Positions 10,348 through 40,786 of a stretch of DNA of 44,899 bases are shown here, in pieces (within the stretch, counting starts at the first letter, position 1; each line of letters opens with the position of its first letter). The position numbers were made by a program, and so were the translations under genes. Below the pieces are notes generated by a model. That model was not told the origin of the DNA. It made no database searches and saw only the letters and a list, made by a program, of their open reading frames with translations. This stretch comes from Escherichia phage SSL-2009a: the sequence record NC_012223.2. One strand, written 5' to 3'.

Positions 10348-11073
10348 ATGGGTTATCAACTTCCTAACGGGTCCAGCGTCCAGATTGGGTCCGTACTGGG
10401 CAACGGCATCGCTGTTACGGCAGCTACCAACGCCGCCGCGTCGATCTCTGATCTTACGAAAGGTTGCGTTATCACCTGCGCGGCTTCTCATGGCCTGCAA
10501 GTTGGTGACGTGGTTATGTTCACTAAAACCCCGTGGGTCCGTGCGCTGAACCGCGCGTTCATCGTGGGTAAAGTGGCGACTAACGACGTTACACTGGCGC
10601 GCTTCGACACCTCGGACGTCACCAAATATCCTGCCGGTGCTTTTGGGGCGGGAACCCCAGGCGAAGTGGTGAAAGTGTCGAATTTTATCGACTTCCCGTA
10701 TATCACTAACGTTGCCGTGTCGGGTGGCGACCAGCAGACCACCACCTTCCAGCCGTTGCAGGTGAATACTGCGATCAGTCTGAATACCACGAAAAACCCG
10801 TTGGTCCAGACTTACACGTTCACCCACGACGAAGAAGACCCGATCCGCCCGATTCTGGAAGACCTGGACGACACACAGAAAACCACTGTGATTAAGTTCA
10901 CTAACCCGGCAGCGGCAAGCGGCAAAGGTGAGATCCGCATTTACCCGGCTAAGGTGTCTTTCCAGAAGATTCCATCGGCTGAAGTAAACAACGTGGAGAC
11001 GGTGGAGTCCACCCTCACTATGCAGTCCGATATGGTTATTTACCGTAAGGACCTGGTTGAAGCGCTGTCGTAA
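10348..11073 (+). CDS. major tail protein
   Basis: 241 aa from ATG 10348 (SD AGGAG 9 nt upstream); directly precedes the G/G-T chaperone and tape measure genes; followed by terminator. Confidence 0.65.
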   Translation: MGYQLPNGSSVQIGSVLGNGIAVTAATNAAASISDLTKGCVITCAASHGLQVGDVVMFTKTPWVRALNRAFIVGKVATNDVTLARFDTSDVTKYPAGAFGAGTPGEVVKVSNFIDFPYITNVAVSGGDQQTTTFQPLQVNTAISLNTTKNPLVQTYTFTHDEEDPIRPILEDLDDTQKTTVIKFTNPAAASGKGEIRIYPAKVSFQKIPSAEVNNVETVESTLTMQSDMVIYRKDLVEALS

Positions 11074-11103
11074 TTTGGTCGCTTAAATAGCGGGTGTTAA
11101 TAT

Positions 11104-11128
11104 GGGGCCAGTACGGCCCCTTTTTTTA
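11104..11128 (+). terminator. rho-independent terminator after major tail gene
   Basis: GGGGCC-agtac-GGCCCC followed by TTTTTTT. Confidence 0.65.
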
Positions 11129-11143
11129 TTGGAGAATACCACA

Positions 11144-11506
11144 ATGGCTAAAGCACCACTCTTTACACTCGACCCTAAACCGACTTTTAAGCTACCGATT
11201 GAGATCCCGCGCCCCGGAGAAAACGAACCTGGCAAAATGACGTTTACCGTGCGCCACCGTCCGATCGACGAGTTTTCGCAGACCATGCAGGATACTGAGC
11301 GCAAGTTGTCAGAATATGACGACAATGACCCGGACGGCTTTAATGTTATGGTCGAGGCCATCATGCACGTCGCAGAAGGCTGGAATCTGCCGGACGAATT
11401 TAACGCGGAGAACGTCCGCCGCTTGGTGGTCAACTACCCGCGCGCGTTCGGCGTGTTCCATACGTCGTACTATCTCGAACTGATGGGATTGCGTGAAAAA
11501 AACTAA
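11144..11506 (+). CDS. tail assembly chaperone (gpG-like)
   Basis: 120 aa from ATG 11144 (SD GGAGA); acidic; ends just after the slippery heptamer A_AAA_AAC (11497-11503). Confidence 0.7.
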   Translation: MAKAPLFTLDPKPTFKLPIEIPRPGENEPGKMTFTVRHRPIDEFSQTMQDTERKLSEYDDNDPDGFNVMVEAIMHVAEGWNLPDEFNAENVRRLVVNYPRAFGVFHTSYYLELMGLREKN

Positions 11507-11820
11507 TTGAGGCGGCGCGACGCTTTTATGGCCCGCCGCCACCCTCCGAAGATTTAGCCGCGAGTTTATGGGGCGCGGCCCCTGAAGATGTTTGCCCACC
11601 AGTTGCGCTATGGCCCGACAACGCTAAGGTAGTCGCCGTCTTCACGGATTGCTCCACGCAATGGCGCACCGGATTCGGCGGCGCATACGGCATCGACTAC
11701 GGCGTACTGGAATGGCTTTTTAAGATGCACGGCATCGAAAACGCGCAACGTGCGTTTAAAGATATCAAGCTAATGGAACGAGTTGCGCTGGATGAAATGG
11801 CGCGGCAGAACCACGCATAA
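11144..11820 (+). CDS. tail assembly chaperone frameshift product (gpG-T-like, via -1 frameshift at 11497-11503)
   Basis: The -1 frame is open from the slippery site A_AAA_AAC to TAA 11818-11820 (about 105 extra codons, translated by hand with no stops); canonical position between major tail and tape measure genes. Confidence 0.6.
11497..11503 (+). other. programmed -1 ribosomal frameshift slippery heptamer A_AAA_AAC
   Basis: X_XXY_YYZ heptamer in the zero frame of the gpG-like gene, two codons before its stop. Confidence 0.6.
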
Positions 11821-12145
11821 CGGAGCGGGACAGGCGGGACGTCCCGTTTTGTCCCGCCACCACTAAACCGCATATATACTCACTTTCATTGCATAAATTA
11901 AAAGCGGGACAGGTGCGCTGTCCCGATCTGTCCCACCCCCAAAATGTGAATATCTATTCGATTTTCGTGCATAAAACAAACGGGACAAAAAGCGGGACAG
12001 AATTGGGCGGGACAAAGCGGGACAGCACCCCTGTCCCCGCCAGTGCTGCCGCGGGTTTTAGCCGATCGGGACAGGCGGGACAAAGCCAAGTCTTTCAGAC
12101 TAGACGGGGGTCAATGGCCCCCCTCGTCTGAGACTGAATAAGGTT
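11821..12145. repeat. iteron/palindrome-rich element A (GCGGGACA units, GGGACAG-N5-CTGTCCC palindromes, terminal GC hairpin)
   Basis: At least 9 direct and 5 inverted copies of GCGGGACA-like units; about 150 bp (11978-12137) nearly identical to 39700-39860; hairpin 12101-12130. Confidence 0.7.
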
Positions 12146-12204
12146 TGTTTTAAATTCGCTGATACAATGACCGACGGCAACTGCATAAAAAGGGGGACTG
12201 CATA

Positions 12205-14844
12205 ATGGCAGATCAGGCAGCGGGCATCACGCTCAAGGCGGACGTCGCGCAAATTAAAACGGCGAATACTGTGCTGGACACATTTGCGCAGAAATCCGAG
12301 AACACAGAACAGAAAGTAAAAAAATTAAACGACACCCTCGGCAAGTCGAAAAAGGTTACTGGCGACGCCGCGGGCGGAATGGAAAAGTTAGCGACTGAAT
12401 CGCAGCGCGCCGCCGACGGCATGACGAAACAGGAGCGACTAGCCAGCCGATTAGGCATGTCGACCAAAAACCTGGGATTCGCATCGCGGAACGCCGCATT
12501 CCAGTTACAGGATATCGCGGTTACGCTTGAGATGGGTATGCCGGTGCACCGCGTTATGCTTCAGCAGCTACCGCAGCTTACTGGGGCGTTTGGCGGACTG
12601 GGAAACACGCTGCGTTATGTCGTCGGCACACTCGGCCCGTTAGGGATCGGCATCGCTGCATTAACGGCAACGCTCGGCGTAGGGGTGGCAATTACGACCC
12701 GCGCAGAGAACCAGGTGGCGGCGCTTAATAAGACGCTGGCGCTGTCCGGTAATATTTCAGGCCTGACAGCTAACCAGATCCTTGTGCTGTCCGAGAACGC
12801 CGAGCGCATGGGCGGGTCATTTCGCAAGACGCGTGACACAATCCAGGCGCTGGCGGCGGCGGGTGTGAAAGCGGGTGGTGACTTTGGCGCATTGGCTAAG
12901 GTAGTGAATGACTTTGCGAAGGTGTCCAGCCAGCCGATCGAGGATGTGGTAGCGGCGGTGGCGAAGCTGTCAACCGACCCGGTAGGCGGCTTGCGCGCAC
13001 TGGCGGATAAGTATCACGTCGTAAACGAAGCGCAGATCCAGCAGGTACAGTCGCTGGTTGATGCGGGTCGTGAGACAGACGCAGTTGCGTTGGCTAACAA
13101 AACAGCCGCTGCGTCGTTCACCAGCATGACCAATGAGATCAAGGCGAACATGGGTACGCTTGAGCGGTCTATGAACGTCGTCACTTCGGCAGCTAAATCA
13201 ATGTGGGACGCTATCCTGGATGTGGGTCGCGCGCAGTCCTCCAATGAGTCTGAGATGAAAGCGCGCGAATCACTCCAGCGCATGACCACGGCGTACTATG
13301 CCGAGATGAAAGCGGTAAACGCAGCCGGTGGGGTAATGACTGAAGCGCAGAAAGCGCGTATTAACATGCTTTATAGCGAACTGGTCGCCCAGGAGAAAGT
13401 AGTAGCGTCGCTCACCCTGCGTAACCGTGCGGAGCGAGACAACGCCCGATCCGCAGACGAATCCGCAAAGGCGAACGAGGAGGCTAACCGCACCGCCCGC
13501 GACCGCGCTGCGTTCGAGAAGGAGTACGCAACCAACGCGAAGAAGCGCGCAGACGAGATCGCCCGCCTCAATTTGCTGAATAAGCGCGGCGTTATTGACG
13601 AGAAAGAGCTTGCTGAGGCGGTTAAGCAGGTAAACGAGCGTTACAAAGACCCGGCCCCGAAGAAGGCCGCGGCTGTTCGCGTGGATGCCGGTATGAAAAT
13701 GCTGGAAGTCGCACGGAGCGAACTGGCCCAGCTTCGAGAATCCGGCAAGCAGATCGAAGCCAACGCGTCTACGCAGACCCGCACGCAACGCGCGCAAGCG
13801 GCCTTAAACAAGCTGATCGCCGACAATGAGCAGTTAATTGCTGCGAGCAAAGAAAGAGCGCTAACGGCAGCAGAAAAGCAGCAGATGGTCGAATTCGGAC
13901 GCGTGAAGGAAGTGCGCGAGCAGATCGTCGAAGAAGCCAAATTGCTGGACGCGAAAGAGAAGCAGGTTAAGGCGCACGCGCAGATCGATGCCTTCGTTAA
14001 GAACCAGAACGCCGAACTAAAAGCCACCGCCGCGGGCTATGCGCTTTCCACTCGCGAAGCGGCAAACCTGCGCGAAGAATTGCAGTTAATCGACCGCCTG
14101 AAGCGTGTAGGCGCTAACGATACCGATATTGACAAGGCGGTGTCTAAGCTGCGGGAAGTGCAGGAGGCGCAGACCGGCGCTAACGCCTCGCTATGGGATG
14201 GATTCAGTCGCGGGCTTAAGGATAGCGTGGATGAAATGGGTAACGGATATACGCAGATGGCGTCGCTTACGAAATTCACATTCAGCGCTATGCAAGACAC
14301 GATGAACGAGTTTTTCGAGACTGGCAAGATTAACGCGAAGGATATGGTCAAATCCATCCTGAGCGAGTTAATCAAGCTGGCTACCTCGCAGGCGTTCAAG
14401 TCCATCGTTGGCGCTTTCGGTGGCGGCGGCAAAAACGGATTGTTCGGCGCTATCTTCTCGGGCCTCACTAAGAATGCGGACGGCGGAGCGTACGCAGGAG
14501 GCAATCTCGCGGCCTATTCGGGTAAGGTGGTAAGCCAGCCTACCTTTTTCAGTTATGGCGTCCAGGCGTTCGCTAAGGGCGCAGGATTGATGGGTGAGGC
14601 TGGACCCGAGGCCATCATGCCACTGAAGCGCGGGCCGGACGGGAAACTTGGCGTTGCCGCGTCGGGTGCGGGCGGTGGTATGGTCGTGACGACTAACGTT
14701 TACACTGGGGCCGGTAAAACAGACACCAGTGTGAGCGGCCCAGACCCCCGTACAGCGCAGGCGTTCGGCAAGCAAATCACCGAGGCGGTGAAGGCCGAGA
14801 TCGTGAAAGCGACGAAACCGGGTGGTGTACTTTACAAACGATGA
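12205..14844 (+). CDS. tail tape measure protein
   Basis: 879 aa, Ala/Gln/Lys-rich coiled-coil composition, glycine-rich C-terminal part; SD AGGGGGA; located after the G/G-T chaperone. Confidence 0.85.
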   Translation: MADQAAGITLKADVAQIKTANTVLDTFAQKSENTEQKVKKLNDTLGKSKKVTGDAAGGMEKLATESQRAADGMTKQERLASRLGMSTKNLGFASRNAAFQLQDIAVTLEMGMPVHRVMLQQLPQLTGAFGGLGNTLRYVVGTLGPLGIGIAALTATLGVGVAITTRAENQVAALNKTLALSGNISGLTANQILVLSENAERMGGSFRKTRDTIQALAAAGVKAGGDFGALAKVVNDFAKVSSQPIEDVVAAVAKLSTDPVGGLRALADKYHVVNEAQIQQVQSLVDAGRETDAVALANKTAAASFTSMTNEIKANMGTLERSMNVVTSAAKSMWDAILDVGRAQSSNESEMKARESLQRMTTAYYAEMKAVNAAGGVMTEAQKARINMLYSELVAQEKVVASLTLRNRAERDNARSADESAKANEEANRTARDRAAFEKEYATNAKKRADEIARLNLLNKRGVIDEKELAEAVKQVNERYKDPAPKKAAAVRVDAGMKMLEVARSELAQLRESGKQIEANASTQTRTQRAQAALNKLIADNEQLIAASKERALTAAEKQQMVEFGRVKEVREQIVEEAKLLDAKEKQVKAHAQIDAFVKNQNAELKATAAGYALSTREAANLREELQLIDRLKRVGANDTDIDKAVSKLREVQEAQTGANASLWDGFSRGLKDSVDEMGNGYTQMASLTKFTFSAMQDTMNEFFETGKINAKDMVKSILSELIKLATSQAFKSIVGAFGGGGKNGLFGAIFSGLTKNADGGAYAGGNLAAYSGKVVSQPTFFSYGVQAFAKGAGLMGEAGPEAIMPLKRGPDGKLGVAASGAGGGMVVTTNVYTGAGKTDTSVSGPDPRTAQAFGKQITEAVKAEIVKATKPGGVLYKR

Positions 14845-29790: not shown

Positions 29791-29816
29791 CCCAAAAATG
29801 GCGGGACAAGCCCGCC
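29791..29816 (-). terminator. intrinsic terminator on minus strand (GGCGGG-cuugu-CCCGCC + UUUUU), contains a GCGGGACA unit
   Basis: Hairpin directly after the stop of gene 29824-29997; T-run on the minus strand. Confidence 0.45.
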
Positions 29817-36992: not shown

Positions 36993-37322
36993 ATGAATAT
37001 CAACGACGCAATCGAAATGTTAACTAAGACTGTTTGCAGTGAGACTAGCCGGTCGTGGGCTTATACCGATGCCGTTGGGGCGGTGCTATTTGAGGTCGAG
37101 CGCCTGCGCAGTGTAGAAAAAGAATTACGCGCCAGGCTGGAATTGCTCAACGGTACAGCGGCGAGCAAGCTGCAGAAGCACAATGAAGAAATGGAAGAAT
37201 ATAAAAAACAGGTTATCAGTTTGCGCGCCGAGGGCAAATCCTGGGCGATGATTGCCGAGTTGACCGGAATTAATCAGAGCACAGTGCGCTCCTGGGTACG
37301 CAATAATAAAACTTCTAAGTAA
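36993..37322 (+). CDS. helix-turn-helix DNA-binding protein (putative transcriptional regulator)
   Basis: 109 aa, SD GGAGA; C-terminal HTH-like segment SWAMIAELTGINQSTVRSWV. Confidence 0.55.
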   Translation: MNINDAIEMLTKTVCSETSRSWAYTDAVGAVLFEVERLRSVEKELRARLELLNGTAASKLQKHNEEMEEYKKQVISLRAEGKSWAMIAELTGINQSTVRSWVRNNKTSK

Positions 37323-37332
37323 GGTCACGGCA

Positions 37333-39597
37333 ATGAGCTTAATTAAATTCGCTGTAACAAGACCCGCTAAAAAAGGCGAAAAAGCCAGGGCGGAAAACTT
37401 CCAGATGACTACCGAAGAGTTTTTCGAATTTATCAATGATGCGAAAGAAATCTCCTCGGTGCATATCAACAAAACGGAAGATAAAGCCGAGTATGCACGC
37501 CGCAAGCGTAAGGCCGACGGCATCGTGGCGTATACCAGTGACGGATTGCGTCGCAAGACCAGTGCGGTGGACCGCTCGATCCTGTTCTTCGATATTGACC
37601 GTACTGACACCCGCACCCTACGCCGCTGCCGTAAGGCGTTCACCGACGCGGGACTGGAGCACGTCTTCCACACCACAACCGGCGACCGTCACCCACTGAA
37701 AGGTGGAACGCGTTGCGCTCGCTTCCTTGTGTTGACCGACAAGCCTGTACCGGCTGAAGACCTGGGCCGTGTCCAGTATGCGCTATTACACCAACTGGGC
37801 CTGTCAGACGTGGACTTCGACGACTGCACGAAAGACACAAACCGCCTTATGTACCTGCCACACCAGCAGTCTGTTATTAAGTGCCACTATGGCAAGCGCG
37901 CCCGCGTCCGTCGTCTGCTCCGCCAGGCTGACAAGCTGGGAGTTGAGAAAGAGGAAGTCCGCCGCGAACTGACCCAGGGCGACGACGCAGTGGCAGACGG
38001 CATTCTGGACTGGTGCTTCCAGGCAGGATTCGAGGAGTTATCTTCCGGTCGCGGTTATGAAGTGCCGTGCCCGAACGAACATCTGCACAGCGGCGAAGGG
38101 TCAACGGCTATCATGGTCAAGGATGGCGAGATCCGTTTCAAGTGTATGCACACCGGCAACGAGTGTTGCTCGGAACTGAATAGACACCAGCACCTGGCGC
38201 TACGTCTTATAGGTATCCCGGACCACCTGAACGTCGAGCCACACAATATGTCCCGTAAGCAAATCGCCGCCATCCTGCCGGGGTTGGACGACGAGGAGGT
38301 CGAATCCTTATACGAACATATTGTTGATGCGGTTGGTGACGGCGAAGAATACGGCGTGTGCACCGATGCGGATCTGGATAACGAGCCGGTCGCACTATTC
38401 AGTAAGCACGACCCGATTATCGAGGGGTTGATTAACTTTAAATCGACCTGGTATCTCGCCGGTGAGTCGAACATTGGTAAGTCTTTCTATGTGCTGGGGC
38501 AAATGGCGTCAGTATCTGCCGGTATTCCGTTTGGGGGGGCGAAGGTCGTCCAGTGCCACAACTTCTATTTCGATGCGGAAGGTGGCGAAGCCTCAAATCA
38601 GCGTAAAGAAGCATTGCAGATTAAATACGAGCACGACCTGGACAAGCTGCACATTATCGATCTGCAATCACGCGGCTGGGATATCACCAGCAAATCCGGC
38701 TTGCGCGAAGTTATCAGCTTCATCAACCGCACCGCTAACGGCGAACCAGTTGGCCTGGTGGCGTTCGACTCACTCAACCAGACTGTTGCGCTGCGGTCCG
38801 CCGATGCTAAACCGTTTGACGAGAACAACGCCAGCGATATGGGTGAAGTGGTCAAAGCGCTGAAAGCCATTGCGGAAAATACAGGTGGCAGTGCTGGCGT
38901 CATCCACCACCCGGCGAAAGGTGCAAACGGCAGCAGAACCCCACGCGGATCCGGTGCGCTGCATGGTGCTGTCGATTCAGCTTTCTTCCTGGAACAGCCA
39001 GACGACAACCAGCCAGGCCAATTGAACCTGTATCACGAAAAGTCACGTAACGGCATCAAGCAAGCGCCGCGTGGCTTCGTCCTGCTCAAGTGCAAGGTGA
39101 AGGTAGATCTCCGCAAGTCGGAAGCGTTCGCGTCGCACCAGTCCACCAGCACCGGGCCGGACTTCGGCGACGTCGTTGCCGGTTGGGACGTCAAACCAAT
39201 TGCGTCCACGCCACGCGACGAGACTCTATACCTCGTACCGGTCGCCCTGGCACCGTTCGCTATAGAACAGGCGAAGGCCGCAGGGAAAGCCGCAGTTAAG
39301 GAAGAGAACACCGCAGGACCGCGCAACGAAAAAGAGAAAGTGCTTTATGCGGCCCTGGAAAAACTGATGGAAGATAACCCGGACCATACTGGATTCAGTA
39401 AATCGGCAATCGTCCGCCAGGCGGGACTCGCGAAGGGGGGCACTTCGACGAAGGCAATCGACGATATGGTCGAGCGCGGCGTGATTGGTTTCTATACAGA
39501 TCCGCACACCGGGGCCATCTATGGGTCGTCGAATTTAGTTATCAAATCGGATATCCCCATTACGCTTTCGGCGACCGATGACGACCTGAAAGATTAA
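37333..39597 (+). CDS. DNA primase/helicase-type replication protein (P-loop ATPase with zinc-binding region)
   Basis: 754 aa; Cys/His cluster CPNEHLHSGEG...FKCMHTGNECC; Walker A GESNIGKS and Walker B-like LVAFDSLNQ; immediately followed by iteron locus B. Confidence 0.7.
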   Translation: MSLIKFAVTRPAKKGEKARAENFQMTTEEFFEFINDAKEISSVHINKTEDKAEYARRKRKADGIVAYTSDGLRRKTSAVDRSILFFDIDRTDTRTLRRCRKAFTDAGLEHVFHTTTGDRHPLKGGTRCARFLVLTDKPVPAEDLGRVQYALLHQLGLSDVDFDDCTKDTNRLMYLPHQQSVIKCHYGKRARVRRLLRQADKLGVEKEEVRRELTQGDDAVADGILDWCFQAGFEELSSGRGYEVPCPNEHLHSGEGSTAIMVKDGEIRFKCMHTGNECCSELNRHQHLALRLIGIPDHLNVEPHNMSRKQIAAILPGLDDEEVESLYEHIVDAVGDGEEYGVCTDADLDNEPVALFSKHDPIIEGLINFKSTWYLAGESNIGKSFYVLGQMASVSAGIPFGGAKVVQCHNFYFDAEGGEASNQRKEALQIKYEHDLDKLHIIDLQSRGWDITSKSGLREVISFINRTANGEPVGLVAFDSLNQTVALRSADAKPFDENNASDMGEVVKALKAIAENTGGSAGVIHHPAKGANGSRTPRGSGALHGAVDSAFFLEQPDDNQPGQLNLYHEKSRNGIKQAPRGFVLLKCKVKVDLRKSEAFASHQSTSTGPDFGDVVAGWDVKPIASTPRDETLYLVPVALAPFAIEQAKAAGKAAVKEENTAGPRNEKEKVLYAALEKLMEDNPDHTGFSKSAIVRQAGLAKGGTSTKAIDDMVERGVIGFYTDPHTGAIYGSSNLVIKSDIPITLSATDDDLKD

Positions 39598-39607
39598 ATT
39601 TTGCGCG

Positions 39608-39653
39608 CATTGGTTGCCATTTTGTGTGCTTTTAGCTGGTCGCATTGGTTGCC
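39608..39653 (+). promoter_or_regulatory. two direct CATTGGTTGCC motifs downstream of the primase gene
   Basis: Copies at 39608-39618 and 39643-39653 (35-bp spacing), directly upstream of iteron locus B. Confidence 0.4.
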
Positions 39654-39699
39654 GTGTAGTGTAAATATAGTGCATAGTTATGCAATAAAACTGCATAAA

Positions 39700-39860
39700 G
39701 TAAGCGGGACAAAAAGCGGGACAAACCAGGGGCGGGACAAAGCGGGACAGCACCCCTGTCCCACCCCGGATGACGCGGCCTGGCGGGGAGCGGGACAGGC
39801 GGGACAACTCCCAGTCTTTCAGACTAGACGGGGGTCAGCGGCCCCCCTCGTCTGAGACTG
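39700..39860. repeat. iteron/palindrome-rich element B (second copy of the 150-bp GCGGGACA element; putative origin-associated)
   Basis: Six direct GCGGGACA units, one GGGACAG-cacccc-CTGTCCC palindrome, and the same terminal hairpin as locus A; near-identical to 11978-12137. Confidence 0.7.
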
Positions 39861-40014
39861 CATAAAATCCGGGATTGCAAAATACACGGCAGCATGTTGC
39901 GGATTGCGGTCGTCGCTGAACTAGGCAACCAATGCGAGTTGCAGAACGGTGGGTGGGAAATGCAGTTTGCAGTCACAGCAGATAGCGATCAACTTTTTCA
40001 TGCGCATGATTAAT

Positions 40015-40055
40015 ATTGGTTGCATTCGTGCCAGCACCCTGCTAGATTGGTTGCA
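40015..40055 (+). promoter_or_regulatory. candidate promoter/operator (ATTGGTTGCAT as -35, TAGATT -10, second ATTGGTTGCA over -10/+1)
   Basis: TTGCAT 40020-40025, 17 nt, TAGATT 40043-40048; second motif copy 40046-40055; SD GAGGA 40065-40069; ATG 40077. Confidence 0.5.
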
Positions 40056-40076
40056 CACCAACATGAGGACTGAACA

Positions 40077-40367
40077 ATGAAAAAATTAATCTGGAATTAC
40101 GCAATGGCCCTGGCGAAGCTGGTTGAAGTTAAACACACACACGGCAGCGCACCCGAGGCGCGCCAGGTAGCTCCGACCTGGTATGCGATCATGAACGCGA
40201 CCGCGGACCTGAAAGACCCAGAACCGCTGCGCATGGCTATCCGGGTCTACGCGATGGCATTTGCCCGTGAGCGCATGGCGTATCGCTTCGGGGTCGGTGA
40301 GACGGCAGCGGCAAACGTCGCCCGGATTGCAGCCCAACGTGAGCTATTCGCCCAGCTTGCAAAATAA
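40077..40367 (+). CDS. hypothetical early protein
   Basis: 96 aa, SD GAGGA 7 nt upstream; first gene after the origin-like region. Confidence 0.5.
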   Translation: MKKLIWNYAMALAKLVEVKHTHGSAPEARQVAPTWYAIMNATADLKDPEPLRMAIRVYAMAFARERMAYRFGVGETAAANVARIAAQRELFAQLAK

Positions 40368-40376
40368 GGGGCCAAA

Positions 40377-40646
40377 ATGGACCGCAGACGCGCGAAACAG
40401 CTTTCGTGGCATATTCCACTGCATTGCGTACGAATGTGGGCTAAGAATGCGTCTGAGGGCGATTCTGTGTTCTGGAGCTATCGCGACGACGTTAAGCCGT
40501 TGACGCAGACTCGCTACTTGCACCAGTTCGCCGCGCAACATGATTTCTATGTGCGGACCTCCTTGCAACCAATGGGGATCCGTATTACATTACGCCGGAA
40601 GCCCGCAGTCGAGCGGGTAGGCAAACACTGGAGACTGAGCAAATGA
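40377..40646 (+). CDS. hypothetical early protein
   Basis: 89 aa, SD AAGGGG; basic (Arg/His-rich). Confidence 0.45.
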   Translation: MDRRRAKQLSWHIPLHCVRMWAKNASEGDSVFWSYRDDVKPLTQTRYLHQFAAQHDFYVRTSLQPMGIRITLRRKPAVERVGKHWRLSK

Positions 40647-40786
40647 CACCAGCACTAATGGCGGGATTCTCGCAGAAGTTTATTTCTGTTGATGCCTGCA
40701 TAGCAGATTATGAGATGGACGGCATCGCTACTGTGTGCGATGGCGACACGAAAACTGCCGACGAGATTGAGGAGACAGAACAATGA
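40643..40786 (+). CDS. hypothetical small acidic protein (47 aa)
   Basis: ATGA overlaps with both neighbours, SD GGAGA 8 nt upstream; found by manual translation (below ORF-track cut-off). Confidence 0.4.
   Translation: MTPALMAGFSQKFISVDACIADYEMDGIATVCDGDTKTADEIEETEQ

What the first reader, a model, noticed from the sequence alone, without database searches (positions are those of the whole stretch)
39700..39860. Iteron element B immediately downstream of the primase-helicase gene: candidate origin of replication
The second copy of the GCGGGACA array and hairpin starts about 100 bp after the primase-helicase stop (39597). It is preceded by two CATTGGTTGCC motifs and followed by a candidate promoter for the rightward early genes. 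Iteron arrays next to a replication initiator gene are the classical signature of a phage origin. Having the same array at two distant loci suggests a bipartite cis-acting system.
Basis: partly seen in the sequence, partly recalled or inferred. Interest (0 to 1): 0.65.

Follow-up and report, generated by a model that had tools for sequence, protein, structure and literature searches.

The report
Probable phage replication origin repeats
A block of short repeats just after this E. coli phage's primase-helicase gene, copied a second time among the tail genes, is most likely where that enzyme binds to start DNA replication; this is a familiar design that has not been tested in this phage group.

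Summary
GCGGGACA occurs 18 times in the window against about 2 expected. It clusters at 39704-39806 (locus B) and 11825-12082 (locus A). The two loci share a ~170 bp module: an AT-rich tract, four boxes, an inverted box, two more boxes and a 49-nt hairpin.

The window is a complete Dhillonvirus genome. All 157 Dhillonvirus records that match the module carry it, usually twice. The Sodalis phage SO-1 GenBank record already annotates both as repeat regions A and B.

In relatives whose primase-helicase is 44-69% identical, the same non-coding slot after the gene holds the same architecture with a different octamer. The octamers seen are GYGTGGCA, GTGTGCCA, GGTGCCA, GGGGGAGA, TTGCGAGT and GTGCGGAA. 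In the relatives whose module aligns (66-69% identity), every aligned box position is replaced in register. This points to a sequence-specific binding protein.

The primase-helicase ends in a predicted winged-helix domain, as do SaPI Rep, P4 alpha and pRN1 ORF904. The neighbouring small HTH protein does not vary with the octamer.

Best reading (confidence about 0.55): an iteron origin read by a self-loading primase-helicase, with a second copy at locus A. GC skew gives no support, because it only follows gene orientation. A role in transcription or as an RNA element is not excluded. This is a new member of a known kind, of moderate interest.

The parts
37333..39597 (+). Primase-helicase gene (754 aa): N-terminal primase-like region, Cys/His cluster, RepA-type RecA-fold helicase, C-terminal winged helix
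   Evidence: ORF. Pfam AAA_25 at residues 357-531, E = 6.9e-20. PHROG 3228 'replicative helicase-primase'; residues 16-177 match primase PHROGs.
39322..39549 (+). Coding region for the predicted winged-helix domain (protein residues about 664-739), the proposed iteron reader
   Evidence: AlphaFold2 gives the topology H-strand-H-H-strand-strand with pLDDT 78-90. The Foldseek PDB hits are mostly winged-helix DNA binders (MarR, IclR, LexA DBD, ORC2 WH), but none has E <= 0.001. T704 sits at the start of helix 3 and S733 in the wing; both track the iteron class.
36993..37322 (+). Small Sigma70_r4-like HTH protein; excluded as the iteron specificity determinant, probable reader of the TTGGTTGC motif
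   Evidence: Pfam Sigma70_r4_2/HTH_23. Its HTH is near-invariant in phages with four different iterons, and no residue tracks the iteron class.
39608..39653 (+). Two CATTGGTTGCC motifs; members of a separate genome-wide TTGGTTGC family, not part of the iteron module
   Evidence: The motif is kept in relatives with other iterons.
39655..39700 (.). AT-rich tract (25% GC at 39660-39699) with palindrome TGCATAGTTATGCA (39671-39684) and TGCATAAA (39692-39699); candidate unwinding element
   Evidence: The homologous tract is conserved in Cornellvirus VSiA.
39704..39749 (+). Iterons 1-4 of locus B (GCGGGACA at 39704, 39716, 39732, 39742; spacing 12, 16, 10 bp)
   Evidence: Boxes are invariant and spacers variable across 16 modules. 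Other octamers replace them in register.
39744..39762 (.). Inverted box pair GGGACAG-cacc-CCTGTCCC (box 4 plus one inverted copy)
   Evidence: In Ioannina it is replaced by CGGGACGTCCCG at both loci.
39790..39806 (+). Iterons 5-6 of locus B (GCGGGACA at 39790 and 39799)
39812..39860 (.). 49-nt imperfect palindrome (hairpin) with invariant base CAGTCTTTCAGACTAGACGG...CGTCTGAGACTG and a variable, still paired apex; no U tract follows
39859..39893 (+). TGCATAAA (39859-39866) and ACGGCAGC (39886-39893), which follow the module in both loci
40015..40054 (+). Conserved weak promoter-like site TTGCAT-N17-TAGATT embedded in two ATTGGTTGCA motifs, upstream of gene 40077-40367
   Evidence: Sequence. Not reported by the scan. 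Conserved as TTGCAA-N17-TATTAT or TATATT in relatives.
11824..11936 (.). Locus A, upstream partial modules: box clusters in direct and inverted orientation (11825, 11850 on the - strand, 11904, 11919 on the - strand) separated by an AT-rich stretch with TGCATAAA (11890)
11937..11979 (.). Locus A AT-rich tract with palindrome TGAATATCTATTCG (11947-11960) and TGCATAAA (11968-11975)
11980..12082 (+). Locus A iterons 1-4 (11980 ACGGGACA, 11992, 12007, 12017), inverted box (12031-12037) and iterons 5-6 (12066, 12075)
12088..12136 (.). Locus A copy of the 49-nt hairpin
12174..12204 (+). ACGGCAAC (12174-12181) and two TGCATAA motifs immediately before the tape-measure gene start at 12205

Best explanation
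Locus B (39655-39866) is most likely an iteron-type origin of replication of this Dhillonvirus.

Proposed mechanism, all steps inferred:
1. The C-terminal winged-helix domains of the hexameric primase-helicase, encoded immediately upstream, bind the six direct GCGGGACA boxes and the inverted box.
2. The adjacent 25% GC tract melts.
3. The enzyme loads itself and primes DNA synthesis.
4. The conserved 49-nt palindrome may serve as a structured loading or priming signal.

Locus A (11824-12136) is a second copy of the same module. It is either a second origin or a cis-acting partner in the manner of P4 crr.

Shown here: the repeats exist; they are conserved as boxes; they change octamer in step across lineages; they are tied to the 3' end of this gene; and the protein has a predicted winged-helix end.

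Inferred: binding, melting, loading, priming, and any cooperation between A and B.
For: 1. Enrichment and clustering: 18 against 2.0 expected.

2. Footprint-like conservation: boxes are invariant and spacers variable, with 1-nt indels, in 16 modules from 9 genomes. All 157 matching records carry the module, at 353 places in total.

3. In-register iteron replacement with the geometry kept (4 boxes at 12, 16-17 and 10 bp spacing, then an inverted repeat, then 2 boxes, then the hairpin). GYGTGGCA in L024 and L028, and GTGTGCCA in L025, follow this geometry. GGTGCCA in L029 and L030 fills the same slot on short contigs. More distant lineages show GGGGGAGA (VSiA), TTGCGAGT (L020/L022), GCTGCCAAC (L021), a TTGCGA-type box (L023) and GTGCGGAA (L027).

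4. The array always sits directly 3' of the primase-helicase gene, although the upstream small HTH changes family (Sigma70_r4-like versus XRE) and the downstream genes differ.

5. A winged-helix C-terminal domain is predicted, and it is the most divergent part of the protein between lineages. P0007, whose winged helix resembles that of P0009, was predicted to have GYGTGGCA, and it does. T704 (start of helix 3) and S733 (wing) are among only 8 residues in 754 that track the iteron class. The small HTH has none.

6. An AT-rich tract abuts the array.

7. Known precedent: SaPI Reps are self-loading helicases whose C-terminal winged-helix domain reads 6-12 iterons placed immediately downstream of rep (PMC9371898). 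PICIs have a pri-rep-ori layout (PMC6092414). The pRN1 origin lies 3' of orf904 and includes a stem-loop (PMC4234260 abstract). P4 alpha has the order primase, helicase, winged helix (PMC2777425).

8. A two-locus layout recurs with another octamer: L022 has arrays at 974-1219 and at 11070-11300.
Against: - There is no experimental evidence in any relative.
- GC and AT skew show no feature at 39.7 kb.
- The helicase is RecA/RepA-type (AAA_25). It is not the AAA+ type of SaPI Rep, P4 alpha or ORF904, so self-loading through a winged helix is argued by analogy only.
- The AT-rich tract lies on one side of the array. It is not flanked by opposed iteron sets as in SaPIs.
- An enrichment of class-tracking residues in the winged helix (p = 0.004 with 7 sequences) vanished with 10 sequences (p = 0.40). 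The domain-wise identity trend is weak.
- Both modules are co-oriented with transcription and sit at operon-internal positions. The hairpin base is conserved in sequence rather than by covariation. These features would also suit a transcription or RNA role.
- Another, unidentified phage protein could be the iteron reader.
Confidence: 0.55

Rival explanations
1. Each module is a transcription-control unit. The boxes would be binding sites for a phage regulator that activates or anti-terminates late transcription. The hairpin would be a processing or termination signal. One copy would sit at the early/late boundary (B), and a booster copy in the middle of the roughly 29 kb rightward late transcription unit (A).
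For: - Both copies are co-oriented with the flanking genes. The same holds for both copies in L022.
- B lies between the early primase-helicase gene and the lysis and structural genes. A lies just before the tape-measure gene, with TGATACAAT (an extended -10-like site) 30 bp after the hairpin.
- TGCATAA(A) flanks the modules: 6 copies against 1.65 expected, 5 of them in A or B.
- The long hairpin has a stem of about 20 bp with bulges, the size of RNase III substrates.
Against: - No sigma-70-type promoter or intrinsic terminator is found by the scans in B. No U tract follows the hairpin.
- The distance from the module to the next promoter or gene is not conserved: about 70 bp in A, about 210 bp in B, and 400 bp in Oekolampad.
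- The array is tied to the 3' end of the primase-helicase gene across lineages whose downstream genes differ.
- The one regulator-like protein next to it does not co-vary with the octamer.
- Cornellvirus has only one copy.
Confidence: 0.2
2. The module acts as RNA. It would be either a roughly 165-nt structured leader or small RNA whose repeated GGGACA motifs bind an RNA-binding protein, or a put/nut-like anti-termination element present in two copies.
For: - The + strand folds into stable hairpins: -71.5 and -66 kcal/mol, z = -1.65 and -2.19.
- A few G-U pairs appear in the hairpin alignment.
- The two co-oriented copies recall putL/putR and nutL/nutR (established knowledge of HK022 and lambda).
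Against: - No Rfam family matches.
- The whole-module fold is barely better than shuffled sequence.
- Almost no compensatory changes are seen: 2 of 18 pairs.
- The boxes occur in both orientations in several lineages (L020/L022, L027, and box 2 of L024/L028). This fits double-stranded DNA recognition better than RNA motifs.
- No promoter is evident.
Confidence: 0.08
3. The arrays serve another DNA transaction, such as a packaging (pac) signal, a recombination site, a copy-control or handcuffing site, or a selfish duplicated element with no function.
For: - Short repeats in two copies could be terminase small-subunit or recombinase sites.
- The second copy sits at different places in different lineages: the chaperone/TMP junction in Dhillonvirus, and after the Mu-F-like head gene in L022. 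That is what a mobile repeat might show.
Against: - The arrays are far from the terminase genes (56-2013).
- Two directly oriented recombination sites would delete 28 kb.
- No integrase or recombinase was found among the flanking proteins scanned.
- Strict box conservation in all 157 matching genomes, and in-register octamer replacement, argue for selection by a binding protein and against junk.
Confidence: 0.07

Closest known systems
SaPI / PICI pri-rep-ori replicons (Rep self-loading helicases; PMC9371898, PMC6092414)
   Same: Short iterons (6-12 copies) lie immediately downstream of the helicase or primase-helicase ORF. The protein has a C-terminal winged-helix domain that gives lineage-specific iteron recognition. 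An AT-rich melting region is present. Primase and helicase are fused in some members (PriRep5).
   Different: The helicase here is RecA/RepA-type (Pfam AAA_25), not AAA+ MCM/SF3-like, and there is no sequence homology. The iterons are octamers. The AT-rich tract lies on one side instead of between two opposed iteron sets. A conserved 49-nt palindrome and a second full copy elsewhere in the genome are extra features. The host is a virulent 45 kb siphophage, not a satellite.
Bacteriophage P4 ori/crr with the alpha primase-helicase (Ziegelin & Lanka 1995, cited in PMC6092414; domain order in PMC2777425)
   Same: One polypeptide carries primase, helicase and a C-terminal winged helix. Octamer iterons occur at two separated loci, of which one (crr) is a cis-acting partner; the crr detail rests on my own knowledge of the P4 literature.
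   Different: Alpha has a DnaG-type primase and an SF3 helicase, and no homology was detected here. Here the two loci are 17 or 28 kb apart on the circular map and are near-identical full modules. Whether both are required is unknown.
Plasmid pRN1 ORF904 replicon (PMC4234260, PMC2777425)
   Same: A prim-pol-type primase is fused to a helicase and a C-terminal winged helix. The essential origin region lies directly 3' of the gene and contains a stem-loop.
   Different: It is an archaeal plasmid with an SF3 helicase, and no iterons were recognised there.
IncQ (RSF1010) oriV with RepA helicase
   Same: It has a RepA-family hexameric helicase: AAA_25 here, with a weak match to PDB 1G8Y. Its origin is built of iterons, an AT-rich segment and conserved hairpins (ssi sites); the origin layout rests on my own knowledge.
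   Different: RSF1010 uses a separate iteron-binding initiator (RepC) and a separate primase (RepB'). It has two ssi hairpins on opposite strands. Here the functions appear fused in one protein, and each module has one palindrome.
GenBank annotation of Sodalis phage SO-1 (NC_013600) repeat regions A and B
   Same: These are the same two loci in a congeneric phage: 11214-11597 and 40178-40657.
   Different: This is an annotation note only. I found no analysis, comparison or experiment in the papers searched.

Membership tests
Iteron origin next to a self-loading initiator-helicase gene (SaPI/PICI type) | Multiple short repeats immediately downstream of the rep or primase-helicase ORF | tested here: met
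   Six direct boxes and one inverted box start 107 bp after the stop codon. The same position is used in at least 10 related lineages.
Iteron origin next to a self-loading initiator-helicase gene (SaPI/PICI type) | C-terminal winged-helix DNA-binding domain on the helicase | tested here: met
   The AlphaFold2 topology is a winged helix with pLDDT 78-90. The Foldseek PDB hits are mostly winged-helix DNA binders, but the best E-value is only 3.7e-3. This is a prediction only.
Iteron origin next to a self-loading initiator-helicase gene (SaPI/PICI type) | AT-rich melting region flanked by two iteron sets in opposite orientation | tested here: not met
   The AT-rich tract (39660-39699, 25% GC) lies upstream of all boxes, and only one box is inverted.
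Iteron origin next to a self-loading initiator-helicase gene (SaPI/PICI type) | Helicase homologous to SaPI Rep (AAA+ class) | tested here: not met
   Only Pfam AAA_25 (RecA-fold, RepA family) matches. No PDB sequence match to Rep was found.
Iteron origin next to a self-loading initiator-helicase gene (SaPI/PICI type) | Specific binding of the protein to its cognate iterons, and rep-dependent replication of an ori plasmid | not testable with these tools
   This needs EMSA or footprinting and a plasmid replication assay. The indirect co-variation evidence is mixed.
P4 ori/crr system | The same octamer iteron at two separated loci | tested here: met
   The loci are 11825-12082 and 39704-39806. 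The layout recurs in L022 with TTGCGAGT.
P4 ori/crr system | Initiator homologous to alpha (DnaG-type primase, D5_N/SF3 helicase) | tested here: not met
   There are no such Pfam, NCBIfam or PDB matches.
P4 ori/crr system | Both loci required in cis for replication | not testable with these tools
   This needs deletion analysis. Cornellvirus VSiA manages with one array.
DnaA-dependent origin | Cluster of DnaA boxes (TTATNCACA) | tested here: not met
   There are 26 one-mismatch sites against 27 expected. None lies in locus B and two lie in locus A.
Origin marked by nucleotide skew | Cumulative GC-skew turning point at the locus | tested here: not met
   The turning points are at 36.5-36.8 kb and about 24.0 kb. 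They coincide with the switches in gene orientation.
Intrinsic terminator | GC-rich hairpin followed directly by a U/T run | tested here: not met
   The scan finds none in 39400-40300. The hairpin is followed by GCATAAAATCC.
Known RNA families (Rfam 15) | Match at the gathering threshold | tested here: not met
   There are 0 matches in the whole window and no tRNA or tmRNA.

The most novel reading that the evidence does not exclude
The six direct boxes plus one inverted box form a fixed docking geometry for the six winged-helix domains of one primase-helicase hexamer. A handful of residues (for example T704 and S733) would switch octamer specificity, giving at least four replicon specificity groups among otherwise 66-69% identical phages. 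These groups would act as incompatibility or anti-cheating classes during co-infection. The second module would be needed in cis, as crr is in P4. This would be the first self-loading, iteron-reading RecA-type (SF4-like) replicative helicase. The genome-wide, strand-biased ACGGCARC word could be its priming signal.
Probability: 0.2. Interest if true: 0.6.

Novelty: new member of a known kind. Interest (0 to 1): 0.42.

Why it matters
Dhillonviruses are among the siphophages most often isolated on E. coli and are part of the BASEL reference collection, yet nothing is known about how they start replication.

If the model holds, it gives a defined origin and a cognate initiator domain for this genus and for the related Cornellvirus-like phages. 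It also offers a natural series of matched protein and iteron variants for studying how origin specificity evolves. It would extend the self-loading design (helicase with a winged-helix iteron reader) from AAA+ helicases of satellites and plasmids to a RecA-type primase-helicase of a virulent phage.

In practice, it marks sequences to keep when engineering or minimising these phages.

Tried and rejected
- **Rfam and tRNA scans:** nothing found.
- **Sigma-70 promoter and intrinsic terminator scans of both loci:** none in B. In A there is one minus-strand terminator-like hit that is simply a box palindrome.
it only follows gene orientation.
- **DnaA boxes:** not enriched.
- **ARG-box resemblance of the AT-rich palindrome:** 3 of the 4 weak hits lie in A or B, but the genome-wide count is no higher than chance (4 against 2.8). 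This is a lead only.
- **Homologues on plasmids that might give functional evidence:** none useful.
- **PDB sequence searches with the protein and with a 30-sequence profile:** only a marginal RepA match and a spurious repeat-protein match.
- **Literature searches** for Dhillonvirus origins, the motif, SO-1 and HK578: no analysis of these repeats.
- **Enrichment of iteron-class-tracking residues in the winged helix:** p = 0.004 with 7 sequences but p = 0.40 with 10, so I do not rely on it.
- **Small HTH protein as iteron reader:** rejected, because its HTH is invariant across iteron classes.
- **G-quadruplex or R-loop idea** (G runs in GCGGGACA and GGGGGAGA arrays): rejected as a general feature, because TTGCGAGT and GTGTGCCA arrays lack G runs.
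- **Coding potential of ORFs 39601-39855 (+) and 39535-39807 (-):** rejected, because orthologous modules differ by 1-2 nt indels.
- **The isolated GCGGGACA at 29801:** it is part of a minus-strand intrinsic terminator hairpin and is unrelated.

Full report
**What the window is**

The window is a complete genome of a Dhillonvirus (HK578/SSL-2009a-like virulent siphophage of E. coli). A 4.2 kb stretch around the finding matches 245 phage records, and the best matches are Escherichia phages at 88-95% identity. Gene order matches the annotated phage Oekolampad:
- terminase to tail fibres on the + strand, 1-24 kb;
- replication and DNA-metabolism genes on the - strand, 24-37 kb;
- then on the + strand a small HTH gene (36993-37322), the primase-helicase (37333-39597), small genes, lysis genes, and back to terminase.

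**Checking the observation**

- GCGGGACA occurs 18 times against 2.0 expected. Six copies lie at 39704-39806 and seven at 11825-12082.
- The core CGGGACA occurs 23 times against 6.9 expected.
- The primase-helicase stop codon is at 39595-39597, so the first box is 107 bp downstream.
- Box 4 forms an inverted pair with CTGTCCC at 39756-39762.
- A 49-nt imperfect palindrome at 39812-39860 folds far better than shuffled sequence, z = -3.85.
- CATTGGTTGCC is exact at 39608, at 39643 and, inverted, at 39924.

Aligning the two loci shows a shared module of about 170 bp (11968-12137 against 39692-39866). In order it contains TGCATAAA, four boxes, the inverted box, about 30 bp that differ between A and B, two boxes, the hairpin, and (C/A)ATAA. 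Locus A carries two further partial units upstream, at 11824-11936.

The isolated GCGGGACA at 29801 is part of a minus-strand terminator hairpin and is unrelated.

**The feature has been noticed before**

The GenBank record of Sodalis phage SO-1, a congeneric phage, annotates 'region A' (11214-11597) and 'region B' (40178-40657). I found no paper that analyses them.

**Conservation within the genus**

The module is found in 157 phage records at 353 places, usually two per genome. I aligned 16 distinct modules from nine genomes or contigs.
- The CGGGACA boxes, the upstream TGCATAAA and the base of the hairpin are invariant.
- The spacers between boxes and the apex of the hairpin vary, including 1-2 nt indels. 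This rules out a coding function for the overlapping ORFs.
- In phage Ioannina the central inverted pair is CGGGACGTCCCG at both loci, so the two copies evolve in concert.

This is the pattern expected of protein-binding sites.

**The decisive comparison: relatives with a diverged primase-helicase**

Homologues at 66-69% and at 44-49% identity exist on metagenomic contigs and in Cornellvirus. Of the contigs I fetched, all but one have a 300-650 bp non-coding stretch directly after the gene. The exception, L026, is cut about 245 bp after the stop and shows no repeats. Most of the others carry a different repeated word.

| Lineage | Primase-helicase identity to window | Repeated word |
|---|---|---|
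| L019 | 69% | GCGGGACA |
| L024, L028 | 68-69% | G(C/T)GTGGCA |
| L025 | 68% | GTGTGCCA |
| L029, L030 | 66-68% | GGTGCCA |
| Cornellvirus VSiA | 44% | GGGGGAGA, four direct plus one inverted |
| L020/L022 | 49% | TTGCGAGT |
| L021 | 46% | GCTGCCAAC |
| L023 | 48% | TTGCGA-type |
| L027 | 48% | GTGCGGAA |

For the 66-69% group the modules align position for position with the window. Each aligned box is replaced by the new octamer (L024 ends after box 4). The spacing of the first four boxes (12, 16-17, 10 bp), the inverted pair, the last two boxes and the hairpin are kept. A concerted, in-register change of a short word at every site is hard to explain except by a change in the specificity of one sequence-specific binding factor.

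Kagunavirus and Jerseyvirus (28-35% identity) lack this region and have a Cro-like gene there instead.

**Which protein reads the boxes?**

Two DNA-binding candidates are encoded next to the array.

The small protein upstream has a Sigma70_r4-like HTH.
- Its HTH is essentially invariant in phages with four different octamers.
- Not one of its residues separates GCGGGACA phages from the others.
- In the more distant lineages it is replaced by an unrelated XRE-type HTH.

It is therefore not the specificity determinant. It more plausibly reads the TTGGTTGC motif, which is likewise invariant.

The primase-helicase is the other candidate.
- It has a RepA-type RecA-fold helicase core (AAA_25, residues 357-531).
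- Its N-terminal region matches phage primase families.
- Its C-terminal region is predicted by AlphaFold2 to be a canonical winged helix, pLDDT 78-90.
- The Foldseek matches in the PDB are mostly winged-helix DNA binders, including MarR and IclR regulators, the LexA DNA-binding domain and ORC2 WH. The E-values are weak, the best being 3.7e-3.
- This domain is the most variable part of the protein between lineages.

I made one prediction before looking at the data: P0007, whose winged helix resembles that of P0009, should have the GYGTGGCA iteron. It does.

Only eight residues in 754 are fixed in all GCGGGACA phages and differ in every phage of the other class. The GCGGGACA set includes L019, which overall is closer to the other class. 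Three of the eight lie in winged-helix elements: N665, T704 at the start of the predicted recognition helix, and S733 in the wing.

I must add caveats. An apparent enrichment of such residues in the winged helix with seven sequences (p = 0.004) disappeared with ten (p = 0.40). The domain-wise identity trend is weak. The co-variation evidence is therefore suggestive, not conclusive.

**Other origin-like features**

A 40 bp tract of 25% GC (39660-39699) abuts the array in a 54% GC genome. It contains a palindrome, TGCATAGTTATGCA in B and TGAATATCTATTCG in A. This palindrome is also present, as two copies 21 bp apart, in Cornellvirus, whose iteron differs. DnaA boxes are not enriched.

Cumulative GC and AT skew turn at 36.5-36.8 kb and at 23.9-24.0 kb, exactly where gene orientation switches. 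They show nothing at 39.7 kb. In a genome this small the skew follows transcription, so the test neither supports nor excludes an origin at 39.7 kb.

**Comparison with known systems**

The closest known design is the SaPI/PICI replicon. SaPI Rep proteins are self-loading helicases, fused to the primase in SaPI5. Their C-terminal winged-helix domain specifically recognises 6-12 short iterons placed immediately downstream of the rep ORF, around an AT-rich region (PMC9371898; PMC6092414).

P4 alpha and pRN1 ORF904 have the same domain order of primase, helicase and winged helix (PMC2777425). The pRN1 origin lies 3' of the gene and includes a stem-loop (PMC4234260 abstract). P4 additionally has its octamer iterons at two loci, ori and crr; this rests on established knowledge of the P4 literature.

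The present case works like these systems but is not a member of their protein families:
- the helicase is RecA/RepA-type, not AAA+;
- no homology to Rep or alpha is detectable;
- the AT-rich tract is on one side of the array;
- there is a conserved palindrome;
- the whole module is duplicated.

**The second locus**

A second, homologous module also exists in the TTGCGAGT lineage, but at another place: after the Mu-F-like head gene, 10 kb downstream of the first. Cornellvirus has only one array. A second copy is therefore recurrent but not universal, and its position is free within the late region. This fits a second origin or a cis partner, but it equally fits a repeated transcription element.

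**Rival explanations**

A transcription-control or RNA role cannot be excluded. In its favour:
- both copies are co-oriented with the genes;
- TGCATAA(A) motifs flank them;
- the hairpin has the size of an RNase III substrate;
- its base is conserved in sequence, with almost no compensatory change.

Against it:
- there is no promoter, terminator or Rfam match;
- distances to downstream genes are variable;
- boxes occur in both orientations in several lineages;
- the module is strictly linked to the 3' end of the primase-helicase gene.

**Verdict**

The origin interpretation is the best-supported reading (confidence about 0.55), but it rests on comparative inference and on analogy with known systems. 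This is a new member of a known kind (an iteron origin beside the gene of its initiator-helicase), already flagged as a repeat region in one GenBank record. It has some unusual traits: a RecA-type fused primase-helicase, a duplicated module, and a natural series of iteron switches. Interest is moderate.

Noticed in passing
whole window; e.g. 12174-12181, 39886-39893, 40141, 40302, 41354: ACGGCARC is the most frequent 8-mer family in the genome, with 45 copies (35 on +, 10 on -) against 4.9 expected. Inside genes, 33 copies lie on the sense strand and 7 on the antisense strand, spread over all three frames. Synonymous-codon shuffles that keep protein sequence and codon usage give only 6.5 +/- 2.4 sense copies. 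Relatives down to Jerseyvirus show a similar density of 0.6-1.2 per kb. One copy follows each iteron module in every lineage seen. Its function is unknown; it could be a priming signal, a Chi-like polar signal or an mRNA signal.
   Followed up: partly
window 6228, 6242, 25186, 25198, 27096, 27113, 33862, 33878, 36797, 39610, 39645, 39925, 40016, 40047, 40565, 43334, 43357 and others: TTGGTTGC occurs 21 times against 2.1 expected, mostly as pairs in intergenic regions. Before gene 40077 it overlaps the -35 (TTGCAT or TTGCAA) and the spacer or -10 of a conserved promoter-like site. It stays the same in phages whose iterons differ, as does the HTH of the small Sigma70_r4-like protein. It is therefore probably that protein's operator or promoter motif.
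   Followed up: partly
window 39671-39684 and 11947-11960; L003 (VSiA) 37040-37075: A palindrome TG(A/C)ATA-N2-TAT(G/T)C(A/G) lies in the AT-rich tract just upstream of each array. In Cornellvirus VSiA it appears as two copies exactly 21 bp apart. It resembles the E. coli ARG box (TGAAT-N4-ATTCA, tandem boxes 21 bp apart), but the consensus search is not enriched above chance. A related GTGAATAGT word sits inside a strong promoter next to the Cro-like gene of Kagunavirus.
   Followed up: partly
L022 974-1219 and 11070-11300 (same phage lineage as L020): A lineage with a 49% identical primase-helicase uses TTGCGAGT iterons. It also has two homologous modules, but the second lies after the Mu-F-like head-morphogenesis gene rather than before the tape-measure gene.
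   Followed up: partly
window 11820-12205: A 385 bp non-coding gap splits the tail-assembly-chaperone genes from the tape-measure gene. These are normally contiguous, as they are in VSiA and L022. Just after the module, TGATACAAT (an extended -10-like site) and two ACTGCATAA motifs directly precede the tape-measure start codon.
   Followed up: no
L002 (phage rolling) primase-helicase, residues 1-200: The N-terminal 200 residues are only 44-72% identical to the window protein, while the rest is 96-100% identical. This suggests a recombination breakpoint inside the gene.
   Followed up: no
window 29795-29816: The isolated GCGGGACA at 29801 is one arm of a minus-strand intrinsic terminator (GGCGGGCTTGTCCCGCC followed by a T run). 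It is conserved in other Dhillonviruses and is unrelated to the arrays.
   Followed up: yes
L028 3880-3900, L025 2885-2900, L029/L030: In the lineages with GYGTGGCA, GTGTGCCA or GGTGCCA iterons, the variable segment between the inverted pair and boxes 5-6 contains a conserved (T)GATTTATAAGGAG word. The window lacks it.
   Followed up: no
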